Origin: Mobula birostris
Lineage: Eukaryota
Direction: 5' to 3'
Length of the DNA stretch: 64,000 bases
NCBI RefSeq assembly: GCF_030028105.1
Contig: NC_092393.1
Coordinates: 59,275,121 to 59,339,120 of the forward strand
Each line of letters starts with the position of its first letter. The stretch's first letter is position 1. Positions 35,101 through 38,100 of the stretch are shown in pieces. A program made the position numbers.

Positions 35101-38100
35101 TCGCACTTTGTAAAACTTCAGACTCAGTGTGTGCACAAGCAAAGGCGAACTATGGATACCTTAGTACCATTTTATAATTTTCCTTTCAGATGTTCATTTT
35201 AATTTTGTTTGCTTATCTGTCACTGTTTCTATGCCAGTATCACAGCACTTGTTAACCGTGTGCCTGCACAAAGATCCTTTTTTGAAAGGCAGTTTGATAA
35301 CTTCCTTGTGATTAGGTCACTGACTTCTAATGTATTTCTATACTGTACATATGTGGAAAATGACTGCTGCTTGAAAACTCTGTCACCAAATTAACCTCCC
35401 TGGTGCTTGGCACTCATTTCCATCGTCATTTCCATCTTAGTTACTCAGTGGGAAACCCCAGTAAAACAATATTTGGAAAAGAATTCCATTGTCCCTATTT
35501 CTCATTCCCACTTTCCCACATTGGCTGCTCCTTGTACAGGCACTGCTTAGCTGATCTCAGCCTTTTGGACATCAGATTTTAAGCAACTTAGTGCTGGTAT
35601 TCAGATTTGGGTGTCCTAGTTGAGAACTCCAATACTATGTCGAGGATTGGTCATTTTTCATCTTTCTTGCAGTGTAAGTGCCCTCAAAGTGAAATGCAGG
35701 TGATACTATCTTAATACTTTGGCTGTTTAATCCGAATTGTTACTATCCTTAACTTGCAGTTTTCATGAATTCATTTATCACTGTCATGCCTACAGCAGTT
35801 CCATTTTTCCCTGGTATCTGTTGCTACTGTTCTTAATTGTCTGCTGTGCTTGAGGCCCACTGCACCAATAATCTCTGAGCCATCAGCAGAATTCTTGTTC
35901 ACCTCAAAACAGCCCTTCTAACTTGCACTGATCTTTGATCCTAACTTGAATTGACCAGACTTGAGCATGCTCAGTTAGCCAGTGCCTGCAGCCTGCTAGT
36001 CACTAACAGGCTAATCTGCTGATGCCAGCGTTGGTTTTAGTTGGTCATTTCATAAGTGTAAGAGATGATGTAACGTAGACAGCAAGAGGCTGATGCGAAT
36101 TAGTATGAAGGGGCAGTCCTGTTAAAAGAGAATGAATTTAAATTAAGTTTCAATTATAACTGAACTCTGAGGGTCTTAGAATTGGTAAAACACCTTTGGT
36201 GTGGTTTTCAGTGTTTATCTAAACTATCAGCTGAGTTTCATTCCCATCATGTTGTACTTTATCTTTCACCTAAGTTTCTCTTTCCGCCCCAGTATTTGGT
36301 GTTACAAAATCAGTTGCCCAAAACGTCAACTGTTTATTCCCCTCCATAGATGCTGCCTGATCTGCTGAGTTCTTCCAATATTTTGTGTTTGTTGCTCCAG
36401 ATTTCCAGAATCTGCCGAATCTCTTGTTGCAACTATTATTTGCACTGCCCATTAATGGTAACTTAATTCCAACACCACAGAGATTTTCAGAAGCAGGATA
36501 TTTTAAATGTTTTATCTGTTTATTACCCTGATGTGGTGTTTTAAATCCTTCAAACTTAACTTTAAGTTCCAGTGACGCTGGCCTACCACTGATTTCCCCC
36601 GCTCAGTAAGGGTAATTTTATATAGTGTGTGGCTTTCATAAACTACCTGTTTGAGCCCAGTTTTCTTGCCTGTTCTACTTTGACCATCCCAGTGATTCTT
36701 TAAAAATGTGATTAATACAAAACAACTGCCACCTTTCTTGATTTTCATAATTTAAAAAAATTAATTGGTTTGGCTGTTTAACCCTCCCAGTTTTGTCCAG
36801 TTTTAGCAGAAGCTTCACTTGGTTGGTATAGCTTCATGATTCATAAGGAGTAAACAGAAAGATGCCCTGTTACATGACAGAGTCAGAACGATCCACATGC
36901 ACACTAAATTACTAGACACAGAACGATCAACATGCACACTAAATTACTAGACACGGAACGATCCACGTGCACACTAAATTACTAGACACAGAACGATCCA
37001 CGTGCACACTAAATTACTAGACACAGAGGAAATGGTGTTTGCCTCCTCAGCTAATGGCAATTCTTTTTAAATCTAAAGACAACTGTATTAGATCTTTTGT
37101 TCTGCAATGCTACCTAAGGGGAAAAAATATCTCCACTTAACTATTGTCCAAAGAAACCTAGGTTGCATGCACTCAATATCTTTTATGTAAGACTGACAGT
37201 GATCTTGAATGAACCTTCCAATTCCTACCCCAATTGCACCAAACCACCTCCCTGTCATCCTCAATGTACTTAAAGGTTAAAGAAGCACTTTGAGAGCTGA
37301 AACATTACAGGTAGTGATTTGCATATTCCATTCCGTTAATAAAGCTTAATCACTGATTCAGAATCAGGTTTGTTATCGCCAACAAATGTAGTGAAATGTA
37401 TTGTTTAGCAGAAGCAGTACAGTACAATACATAAAATATACTTTGAATTACAATAAAAATAAGTACGTAGTGTAAAAAGAGCAAAAATAGTGAGGTATTT
37501 ATAAAATAGTAGAGGACTGCTCCTTGAATCAAATGATTAATCAATCAATTGGGAATTCAAACTTGTGTAATGCAGAGAGGTGATCTGTGTGCTATTTTGT
37601 GCTATGTTATGAACTGTATACTTGTACGCATGTGTACGTGTGTGTGTGTGTATACACAAGGTTAAAAGACCGAGTAGACGAGGTGGGTGCTTTGCTGTTG
37701 GCGAATGATGAAGGCAGTCTCGTTCAGCAAGTACATGCCGTCAGCTGTGTTGAAGATTCTATCTTCATGGGTTCTTCTGGTGCCTGCAGTTTACAGCCTG
37801 AAGACAGGTAACTGTATAAAGAGTAAATTCTCCTGCGCCAGACTATGGCTGTCACTTGGAAACAATAACTGATGTTTATTAGTTAACCGTTTTGTCCCCA
37901 CTCCAATAAACTGACTTTTCTCAGTCGTAAGCCCCCTTTGGGAGTTTTAAAGTACTCTCTTCTTTCATTCAGTCATTATTTTATATTTTCCCCTCCTACA
38001 TGCAAATTAGCAAATGAAAACATCCAAAGCTCTACAGGAGAGGAAAGAAGGGTCTTGGCCGAAAAACGTTAACTCTTTATTCCTCCAGCATTTTGTGTCT

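What the first reader, a model, noticed from the sequence alone, without database searches (positions are those of the whole stretch)
37630..37815. Candidate unannotated Miro1 cassette exon directly behind a UG repeat
Seen: deep in the 18-kb last intron is a 147-nt segment bounded by AG and a strong AG|GTAACT donor. Its phase is 2-2, exactly what is needed between the MYP or Cys-rich exon and the terminal exon. It is open only in the RHOT1 frame; the other two frames stop. It retains several CpGs, unlike its flanks. The acceptor has a (TG)n tract instead of a pyrimidine tract. Established: UG repeats next to splice sites bind TDP-43/CELF proteins, and insertions at this position of mammalian Miro1 alter organelle targeting. 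Inference: a regulated lineage-specific or overlooked 49-aa acidic linker insertion just before the tail anchor.
Basis: partly seen in the sequence, partly recalled or inferred. Interest (0 to 1): 0.72.

Follow-up and report, generated by a model that had tools for sequence, protein, structure and literature searches.

The report
Conserved third Miro1 cassette exon
The 147-base segment is a genuine alternative coding exon of the Miro1 (RHOT1) gene that is shared from sharks to mammals and already present in public gene models, although no paper I could find has studied it.

Summary
At 37661-37807 (+) lies a 147-nt, phase 2-2 segment that is open in only one frame. It is bounded by caAG|G and CAG|GTAACT, and a (GT)7 tract sits where a pyrimidine tract would normally be.

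It is a real exon. Its 48-aa translation matches, at the predicted position between the Cys-rich exon and the tail-anchor exon, named RHOT1 isoforms of nine elasmobranch species at 83-98% identity. It also matches Callorhinchus at 69%.

The same exon sits at the same position in named models of coelacanth, sturgeon, bowfin, frogs, a lizard, turtles, a crocodile, birds and mammals. It is therefore found across jawed vertebrates and is not lineage-specific. It is also already annotated in relatives, so "unannotated" does not apply to them.

The two Miro1 splice-variant papers and the review that I read in passages mention only exons 19 and 20. Four literature searches found no description of a third cassette, and a search for three motif strings found no paper.

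The peptide is acidic (pI 4.07) and has a near-invariant core, QVHAV..VEDSIFM.SS. What it does, and whether the UG repeat regulates its inclusion, remain untested. The window is ray-like and not human.

The parts
37661..37807 (+). 147-nt alternative coding cassette exon of RHOT1/Miro1, phase 2-2. It encodes 48 full codons plus two split codons, giving a 49-aa insertion that ends in Arg.
   Evidence: Open in one frame only. Matches named RHOT1 isoforms at this position at 83-98% identity in elasmobranchs, at 69% in Callorhinchus and across bony vertebrates.
37659..37660 (+). Acceptor AG in the context caAG|G. It is a weak 3' splice site.
   Evidence: pyrimidine share 0.50, the lowest of 11 acceptors, with A at -3.
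37638..37651 (+). (GT)7 microsatellite directly upstream of the acceptor. TRF reports an interrupted TG-rich tract at 37631-37652.
   Evidence: Its role in splicing is inferred only.
37580..37658 (+). AG-free zone upstream of the acceptor. The previous AG is 81 nt upstream, which allows a distant branch point.
37808..37813 (+). Donor GTAACT (CAG|GTAACT). In this frame the TAA inside it stops read-through one codon after the exon.
24601..24723 (+). Cys-rich 41-aa cassette exon, equivalent to mammalian exon 20 / insertion 2. Its donor CAG|GTTCTT is weak.
   Evidence: 84 homologous proteins were found. Its sequence is identical to Mobula, Hypanus and Hemitrygon isoforms.
22949..23151 (+). Last constitutive exon before the cassette region. 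It ends ..TTIAMYP and leaves CC of a split codon.
42871..42988 (+). Coding part of the terminal exon: linker, transmembrane tail anchor and the stop codon at 42986-42988.
   Evidence: 100% identical to Hemitrygon X1 over 39 aa.
24724..42870 (+). The 18,147-nt interval that acts as the last intron when the cassette exon is skipped.

Best explanation
The segment 37661-37807 is a genuine and ancient alternatively spliced coding exon of RHOT1/Miro1. [quoted passage not shown]

Shown:
- The exon is intact in this ray-like genome, with an open frame, AG/GT borders and phase 2-2.
- Its peptide is orthologous to an exon used at exactly this position in named gene models from chimaera to mammals.
- The elasmobranch models seen come in three tail types: no insert (619 aa), Cys-rich exon only (659-660 aa), and Cys-rich exon plus this exon (709 aa in most). 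The exon is therefore optional in those models.
- The peptide is acidic. Its first ~39 residues are conserved and its last ~10 are variable.

Inferred:
- Inclusion is regulated. The 3' splice site is the weakest in the window, which fits a non-constitutive exon. The (GT)7 tract may contribute to that weakness.
- Function: by analogy with exons 19 and 20, which shift Miro1 between mitochondria and peroxisomes, the insertion most likely changes targeting or partner binding of the tail-anchored protein. The conserved core (..LGA.LLAD.E.S..QVHAV..VEDSIFM.SS) would act as a short docking motif on the cytosolic side of the anchor.
For: -: 2 of 8 candidates matched at E <= 0.01. These were Cetorhinus X1 (88% identity, 100% coverage, E = 4.7e-14) and Rhinoraja X4 (83%, E = 2.8e-12).
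- in both proteins the match lies between ..VLNR and HT.QADLK.
- 11 of the 18 listed cluster members, from 9 elasmobranch species, carry the exon. The other 7 carry no insert or only the Cys-rich exon.
- 36 of 48 positions are invariant across 9 elasmobranch sequences.
- Callorhinchus milii A0A4W3JEX5 matches at 69% identity, with the same position and the same 49-aa length (E = 2.3e-17).
- 31 of the 75 named proteins that hold the Cys-rich exon carry this exon directly after it. They include Latimeria, Acipenser sinensis, Amia, Xenopus tropicalis, Hymenochirus, Podarcis, turtles, Crocodylus, many birds, and the mammals Artibeus, Pteronotus, Camelus, Alexandromys and Cricetulus.
- in 39 aligned exon peptides, 22 columns are at least 90% identical.
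- 11 exon positions are invariant and 10 are nearly invariant in 26 full-length isoforms.
- there is no second copy of the segment in the window, so it is not a repeat.
- the acceptor is weak, and the exon has raised CpG and GC.
- (passages of PMC5800816 and PMC7001505): insertions at this junction change the mitochondrial versus peroxisomal localisation of mammalian Miro1.
Against: - There is no transcript evidence for this species. No RNA-seq or junction data were available.
- Most supporting proteins are computed gene models (XP_, Ensembl-derived). Some may have been built by protein homology, so they are not fully independent of one another.
- The exon is less conserved than its neighbours. 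Ray versus bony vertebrates gives 40-63% identity, against 70-75% for the preceding constitutive exon and 75-87% for the Cys-rich exon.
- 44 of the 75 named Cys-rich-exon proteins lack it. These include the three teleost hits (Conger, Paramormyrops, Albula) and the bichir X1 model.
- No function has been measured for it anywhere that I could find.
- It has no Pfam family and no solved structure.
Confidence: 0.9

Rival explanations
1. The segment is a chance open frame with chance AG and GT sites (a pseudo-exon) in a long intron.
For: Open frames of this length are common. 26 of 2153 stop-to-stop stretches in the intron are 75 codons or longer. The splice-pattern rule finds another candidate at 32655-32837. 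The acceptor lacks a pyrimidine tract.
Against: The peptide matches RHOT1 isoforms at the exact predicted position from chimaera to mammals, with E-values down to 1e-28 for the profile. The other pattern candidate has no such match.
Confidence: 0.02
2. It is a lineage-specific, recently exonised sequence, for example from a transposable element. This is the 'lineage-specific' arm of the reader's inference.
For: The intron is rich in repeats. There are LINE pieces elsewhere in the window, an inverted repeat pair at 38579-38794 and 39985-40199, and a tandem repeat at 36884-37027.
Against: There is no other copy of the segment in the window and no Pfam family. It is present at the orthologous position in 38 named species spanning the jawed vertebrates.
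Confidence: 0.01
3. The exon is real, and its inclusion is controlled mainly by the upstream UG repeat through TDP-43 or CELF proteins. This would resemble the (UG)n tract at the CFTR exon 9 acceptor (recalled, not read here).
For: (GT)7 ends 9 nt before the acceptor AG and takes the place of a pyrimidine tract. The acceptor is the weakest of 11 in the window.
Against: - Binding and any effect on splicing are untested.
- Conservation of the repeat could not be checked, because no orthologous intron DNA was available.
- One model that seems to read into the upstream flank (Columba guinea P0080) shows no Cys-Val repeat there. This hints that the tract is not shared, but I cannot show that stretch is contiguous genomic sequence.
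- Microsatellites of this size are common in introns.
Confidence: 0.2
4. It is a conserved non-coding element, such as a splicing or transcriptional regulator, that gene-prediction pipelines wrongly model as coding.
For: The support comes from computed models, and the exon is absent from many isoforms.
Against: - The window was not annotated, yet the frame is open only in the RHOT1 phase.
- AG and GT sit exactly at the borders of the homology.
- The split codons give Pro or Arg on the 5' side and the invariant Arg on the 3' side.
- Variation is concentrated in a C-terminal stretch, where the models differ in length.
- Two pipelines, NCBI and Ensembl-derived UniProt entries, agree.
Confidence: 0.04

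Closest known systems
The same exon in public RHOT1 models, for example Hemitrygon akajei isoform X1 (XP_072882523.1), Cetorhinus maximus X1 (XP_078385186.1), Callorhinchus milii A0A4W3JEX5, Latimeria X1, Artibeus jamaicensis X2 and Pteronotus X1
   Same: The position (after ..VLNR and before H.TQADLK), the length (49 aa in most) and the conserved core all match. The window differs from Hemitrygon by one residue.
   Different: Nothing essential differs. The window has Q where the other elasmobranchs and Callorhinchus have H at exon residue 22. The last ~10 residues vary between lineages.
Mammalian Miro1 insertion 2 (exon 20, 41 aa, Cys-rich; Okumoto 2018 PMC5800816 and Covill-Cooke 2020 PMC7001505, read in passages)
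   Same: It is an optional cassette at the same cGTPase/tail-anchor junction with the same phase. It is also present in this window at 24601-24723, and it is conserved in non-mammals.
   Different: It is a different exon with an unrelated sequence. It is Cys-rich and basic, whereas this exon is acidic. It has been studied experimentally and this exon has not.
Mammalian Miro1 insertion 1 (exon 19, 32 aa; Pex19-binding, peroxisome-targeting)
   Same: It is an optional cassette at the same junction that changes organelle targeting.
   Different: - It lies upstream of insertion 2, not downstream. I inferred this from the shared L608 numbering of variants 2 and 4 and from mammalian models.
- It is reported as mammal-only.
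- By eye it shows no likeness to this peptide. I did not run that comparison with a tool.
Client motifs for the ELF pocket of Miro, such as CENPF, Trak, MYO19 and MTFR1/2/1L (Covill-Cooke 2024, PMC10897228, passages)
   Same: Both have a conserved Phe (Tyr in 3 of 39 sequences) in a conserved, acidic, probably unstructured stretch. In most species an acidic residue lies two positions after the Phe (F-M-E). This loosely fits the paper's criteria.
   Different: The likeness is only a lead. In rays, including this window, coelacanth and some other species the acidic residue is Gly. Binding has not been shown.
UG-repeat-flanked 3' splice sites such as CFTR exon 9 (recalled)
   Same: A UG repeat lies immediately upstream of the acceptor of an optional exon.
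   Different: No U tract follows the repeat, there are only 7 repeats, and no binding or conservation data exist.

Membership tests
RHOT1/Miro1 third C-terminal cassette exon, as in the 709-aa 'isoform X1' models | Lies in the RHOT1 gene, on its strand, between the Cys-rich exon and the tail-anchor exon | tested here: met
   tblastn of Cetorhinus X1 and Hemitrygon X1 maps 12 collinear pieces on the + strand. The candidate falls between 24601-24723 and 42871-42985.
RHOT1/Miro1 third C-terminal cassette exon, as in the 709-aa 'isoform X1' models | Peptide homologous to the annotated exon | tested here: met
   Identity is 98% to Hemitrygon, 83-94% to the other elasmobranchs and 69% to Callorhinchus. 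The core is shared with 38 named species.
RHOT1/Miro1 third C-terminal cassette exon, as in the 709-aa 'isoform X1' models | Intact frame, phase 2-2 and canonical AG/GT borders | tested here: met
RHOT1/Miro1 third C-terminal cassette exon, as in the 709-aa 'isoform X1' models | Spliced into mRNA in this species, and only in part of the transcripts | not testable with these tools
   No RNA-seq or transcript collection was available. Optional use is inferred from the isoform sets of relatives (619, 659-660 and 709 aa).
TDP-43/CELF-regulated exons with a UG repeat at the 3' splice site | UG repeat of about six or more units next to the acceptor (threshold recalled) | tested here: met
   (GT)7 at 37638-37651, ending 9 nt before the acceptor AG.
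TDP-43/CELF-regulated exons with a UG repeat at the 3' splice site | Protein binding to the repeat, and a change in inclusion when the repeat or the protein is removed | not testable with these tools
   This needs CLIP, minigene or knock-down experiments.
TDP-43/CELF-regulated exons with a UG repeat at the 3' splice site | Repeat conserved at the orthologous acceptor | not testable with these tools
Miro ELF-pocket client motifs (PMC10897228) | Conserved Phe or Leu in a conserved loop, often beside an acidic residue | tested here: inconclusive
   Phe occurs in 36 of 39 sequences and Tyr in 3. The residue at +2 is Glu in most species but Gly in 9 of 39, including the window. The criteria are loose by the paper's own account.
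Miro ELF-pocket client motifs (PMC10897228) | Direct binding to the ELM1 pocket, lost on mutating the Phe or Leu | not testable with these tools
   This needs yeast two-hybrid, pull-down or structural work.

The most novel reading that the evidence does not exclude
The exon defines a third class of Miro1 isoform, found across jawed vertebrates, that the Miro literature has missed. Its near-invariant acidic core carries a conserved Phe (..VEDSIFM.SS). That core could be a built-in docking motif, for example a pseudo-client that occupies Miro's own ELF pocket in cis or in trans. It would then compete with Trak, MYO19, CENPF or VPS13D. Alternatively it could be a site for a still unknown partner that redirects the tail-anchored protein.
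Probability: 0.12. Interest if true: 0.7.

Novelty: already known. Interest (0 to 1): 0.38.

Why it matters
Miro1 is the central adaptor for mitochondrial and peroxisomal transport, and it is implicated in Parkinson's disease. Work on its C-terminal splice variants has dealt only with exons 19 and 20.

The exon verified here is already in database models, so it is not new as a sequence. It is, however, older than exon 19, which is reported as mammal-only. It is conserved from chimaera to mammals and has a near-invariant core, yet no paper I could search describes it.

It was wrong on 'lineage-specific', and 'unannotated' does not hold for relatives.

For Miro biology, this is a cheap and directly testable lead: compare isoforms with and without the 49 residues.

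Tried and rejected
- Complex prediction. I submitted Hemitrygon X1 residues 1-581 against exon residues 623-671. The verdict was 'no answer', with scores 0.00 and 0.00. The controls were not run and the alignment was not used. This counts neither for nor against binding.
- AlphaFold2. I folded the full 709-aa Hemitrygon X1 with a 26-row alignment. Mean pLDDT was 38.3 and pTM 0.29, and the exon region was below 50. The model is uninformative, so I did not use it for fold search or for secondary-structure claims.
- Pfam and PDB sequence searches with the exon peptide. Pfam gave 0 families. PDB gave only two chance-level matches, to translation initiation factor 6, at E = 0.06 and 0.55.
- phmmer of the 48-aa peptide against 1.84 billion representatives. 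There were 10 hits at E <= 0.001.
  - Six are short unnamed proteins of 60-89 aa with 61-70% identity over query residues 1-40. They look like unspliced genomic ORFs.
  - Four are long multi-stretch proteins with 26-47% identity.
  - All are unnamed, their taxa are unknown, and some could be human. I did not fetch, print or use any of them, so what they are stayed unchecked.
- Six unnamed hits (P0065, P0067, P0091, P0108-P0110) were left out in the same way.
- FFAT-like and LIR readings of the core were considered by eye and dropped. The FFAT position 4 is Gly in rays, and no [WFY]xx[LIV] motif is present.
- The second pattern-only candidate, 32655-32837, has no homologue.
- Literature. Searches found no description of a third cassette, and one search found no paper at all. 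Supplements, including Fig. S1D of PMC5800816, were not seen and might bear on this.
- Not done: any comparison with human sequence, any search with a joined (spliced) model of the window, and any tool comparison with the insertion-1 peptide printed in PMC5800816.
- The N run at 2027-2195 was left as it is.
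Full report
**What the window is**

The + strand carries the 3' two-thirds of RHOT1/Miro1. tblastn of two named elasmobranch proteins (Cetorhinus maximus X1 and Hemitrygon akajei X1) gives 12 collinear pieces from residue 211 to the C-terminus.

- The Cys-rich exon of the window is identical to that of Mobula hypostoma, Hypanus sabinus and Hemitrygon akajei isoforms. 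The window is therefore from a stingray-like batoid, and I do not take it for human.
- An N run at 2027-2195 was left untouched.
- The exon ending at 23151 (..TTIAMYP) leaves CC of a split codon.
- The Cys-rich exon 24601-24723 (123 nt) leaves AG.
- The terminal exon starts at 42871 with A and ends at the stop codon 42986-42988.

**The observation**

- 37661-37807 is 147 nt, preceded by caAG and followed by GTAACT.
- Only the frame that suits phase 2-2 is open. The other five frames have stops.
- The exon has 5 CpG (observed/expected 0.60, GC 0.49). This compares with 0.33 and 0.37 in the 500-nt flanks and 0.22 in the whole intron.
- A (GT)7 tract lies at 37638-37651.
- The pyrimidine share at -23..-4 is 0.50, the lowest of the 11 RHOT1 acceptors in the window (the others are 0.60-0.85). 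Position -3 is A. The previous AG is 81 nt upstream.
- The donor CAG|GTAACT is decent but lacks the +5 G, so 'strong' is generous.

By pattern alone the case would be weak. 26 of 2153 stop-to-stop stretches in this intron reach 75 codons. The splice-pattern rule also picks 32655-32837, which has no homologue. The segment has no second copy in the window.

**What it is**

I searched exon by exon.

- The 48-aa translation of the candidate alone found two proteins among 8 candidates. They are 'mitochondrial Rho GTPase 1-A isoform X1 [Cetorhinus maximus]' (88% identity, full coverage, E = 4.7e-14) and 'isoform X4 [Rhinoraja longicauda]' (83%, E = 2.8e-12).
- In both, the match sits exactly between ..VLNR, the end of the Cys-rich exon, and HT.QADLK, the start of the tail-anchor exon.
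- Their two 90% clusters hold 71 members, of which 18 were listed. Of those 18, 11 carry the exon. They come from Cetorhinus, Stegostoma, Hemiscyllium, Chiloscyllium, Rhincodon, Rhinoraja, Amblyraja, Narcine and Hemitrygon. The other 7 carry no insert (619 aa) or only the Cys-rich exon (660 aa).
- Hemitrygon X1 differs from the window by one residue in this exon.
- Across nine elasmobranch sequences, 36 of 48 positions are invariant. The differences and length changes are concentrated in the last ten residues.
- A profile of these sequences also found Callorhinchus milii A0A4W3JEX5 (69% identity, E = 2.3e-17), with the exon at the same place and the same length.

**Depth of conservation**

Searching with the window's Cys-rich exon alone returned 84 proteins. 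I printed the tails of the 75 new named ones. I left out six unnamed ones, and three had been seen before.

- 31 of the 75 carry the exon directly after ..[VL]NR. They are:
  - Latimeria X1, Acipenser sinensis and Amia X1 (the last is divergent and longer);
  - Xenopus tropicalis and Hymenochirus;
  - Podarcis, three turtles, Crocodylus and many birds;
  - the mammals Artibeus (720 aa), Pteronotus (752 aa, with all three cassettes), Camelus bactrianus, Alexandromys and Cricetulus.
- 44 of the 75 lack it. These include the three teleost hits and the bichir X1 model.
- An alignment of the window plus 38 named species has 22 columns at 90% identity or more. The core reads E.GA.LLA..E.S...QVHAV...EDSIFM.SS and the final residue is Arg.
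- I left duplicates of the same species out of that alignment. P0080 was dropped because the extraction pattern did not fit it.
- Identity between the ray and bony vertebrates is 40-63% for this exon. It is 70-75% for the preceding constitutive exon, 75-87% for the Cys-rich exon and 78-89% for the terminal exon.

The exon is thus the least constrained part of the tail. It still has 11 invariant and 10 nearly invariant positions in 26 full-length isoforms. Given the age of the split between cartilaginous and bony vertebrates (recalled as more than 400 million years), neutral intron sequence would not keep this.

**Comparison with what is in print**

- Okumoto et al. 2018 (PMC5800816, passages) describe insertion 1 (32 aa; Pex19-dependent peroxisomal targeting; mammals only) and insertion 2 (conserved also in chicken and frog).
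- Covill-Cooke et al. 2020 (PMC7001505, passages) and a 2020 review (PMC7523470, passages) likewise speak only of exons 19 and 20.
- Leu608 of insertion 1 has the same number in variants 2 and 4, and mammalian models show the order directly. Insertion 1 therefore precedes the Cys-rich insertion.
- The exon studied here follows the Cys-rich insertion. It is a third site, not insertion 1.
- Searches found no description of a third cassette, and one search (three motif strings) found no paper. PMC4143580 (passages) concerns the 96-nt exon.
- I could not see supplements. I did not look at human sequence, so whether human RHOT1 has the exon stayed unchecked here.

**How it most likely works**

Shown:
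- The exon is optional in the gene models of relatives. The tails seen are of three kinds: no insert, Cys-rich exon only, and both exons.
- In everything I saw, the exon occurs together with the Cys-rich exon. My second search required that exon, so this is biased.
- Phase 2-2 would also allow a direct join to the exon ending at 23151.

Inferred:
- The weak acceptor, the long AG-free zone and the (GT)7 tract fit an exon that needs help to be included or is easily repressed.
- Whether TDP-43 or CELF act on the repeat is untested.
- I could not check whether the repeat is conserved, because no vertebrate genomic collection was open.

The peptide:
- It has 9 acidic and 2 basic residues, with pI 4.07.
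- It has no Pfam family and no relative among solved structures.
- Insertions at this junction alter the mitochondria/peroxisome partition of mammalian Miro1. The first 39 residues are far better conserved than the last ten. I therefore think the segment is a partner-binding or targeting-modulating linear motif rather than a mere spacer.
- One specific lead concerns the ELF pocket of Miro. The conserved Phe sits in an acidic stretch and loosely fits the criteria for ELF-pocket clients (PMC10897228, passages). In this window, however, the residue two positions after the Phe is Gly, not acidic.
- The modelling attempts gave nothing usable. They are listed under Tried and rejected.

**Verdict**

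- 'Lineage-specific' is wrong. 'Unannotated' does not hold for relatives, and I could not check it for this genome's own annotation.
- As a sequence feature it is already known in public gene models. As biology it appears unstudied, which gives it modest interest.

Noticed in passing
window 24560-24800: The intron flanks of the Cys-rich exon are conserved very deeply. Read-through past its weak donor (CAG|gttctt) translates to RFFLLFTGSQ.., much like the ..VLNRFLTLFTGYQAFC endings of deer, orang-utan and elephant-seal models. The in-frame stretch just upstream (NCLTSVCFRS) resembles read-in stretches of Callorhinchus, duck and goose models. This suggests conserved splicing-regulatory sequence around that exon.
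   Followed up: partly
window 32655-32837: A second segment fits the same AG / open phase 2-2 / AG|GTAAGT pattern (183 nt).
   Followed up: yes
window 37718-37807: An internal AG at 37716-37717 would give a 90-nt in-phase version of the exon using the same donor. No model I saw uses it.
   Followed up: no
window 38579-38794 and 39985-40199: An inverted repeat pair of about 216 nt at 84% identity lies in the same intron, downstream of the exon. It is probably two copies of a short interspersed element.
   Followed up: no
window 36884-37027: A tandem repeat of a 35-nt unit, 4.1 copies with 95% matches, lies about 630 nt upstream of the exon.
   Followed up: no
window 47138-47518 and 62006-62422: There are LINE fragments downstream of RHOT1: an endonuclease-reverse transcriptase piece (Exo_endo_phos_2, E = 6.7e-07) and a reverse transcriptase piece (RVT_1, E = 4.5e-07). 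Similar-looking pieces lie at 23418-23870, between the ..MYP exon and the Cys-rich exon. I recognised those by eye only. The one piece of that region that I tested (23708-23869) matched no Pfam family.
   Followed up: partly
window 59961-61411: A long C/T-rich low-complexity repeat block is open in all three + frames, giving Pro/His/Ser/Thr-rich translations. It explains the GC skew of -0.578 at 60001-62000.
   Followed up: no
P0035 (Scyliorhinus canicula isoform X2): This catshark model ends after the Cys-rich exon with a different 58-residue tail that shows no HT.QADLK/tail-anchor sequence. It would be a non-anchored isoform if real.
   Followed up: no
one search hits P0020-P0029: Six short unnamed proteins (60-89 aa) match exon residues 1-40 at 61-70% identity. 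Four long unnamed proteins match in 4-7 stretches. Their origin is unknown and some could be human, so they were not opened.
   Followed up: no
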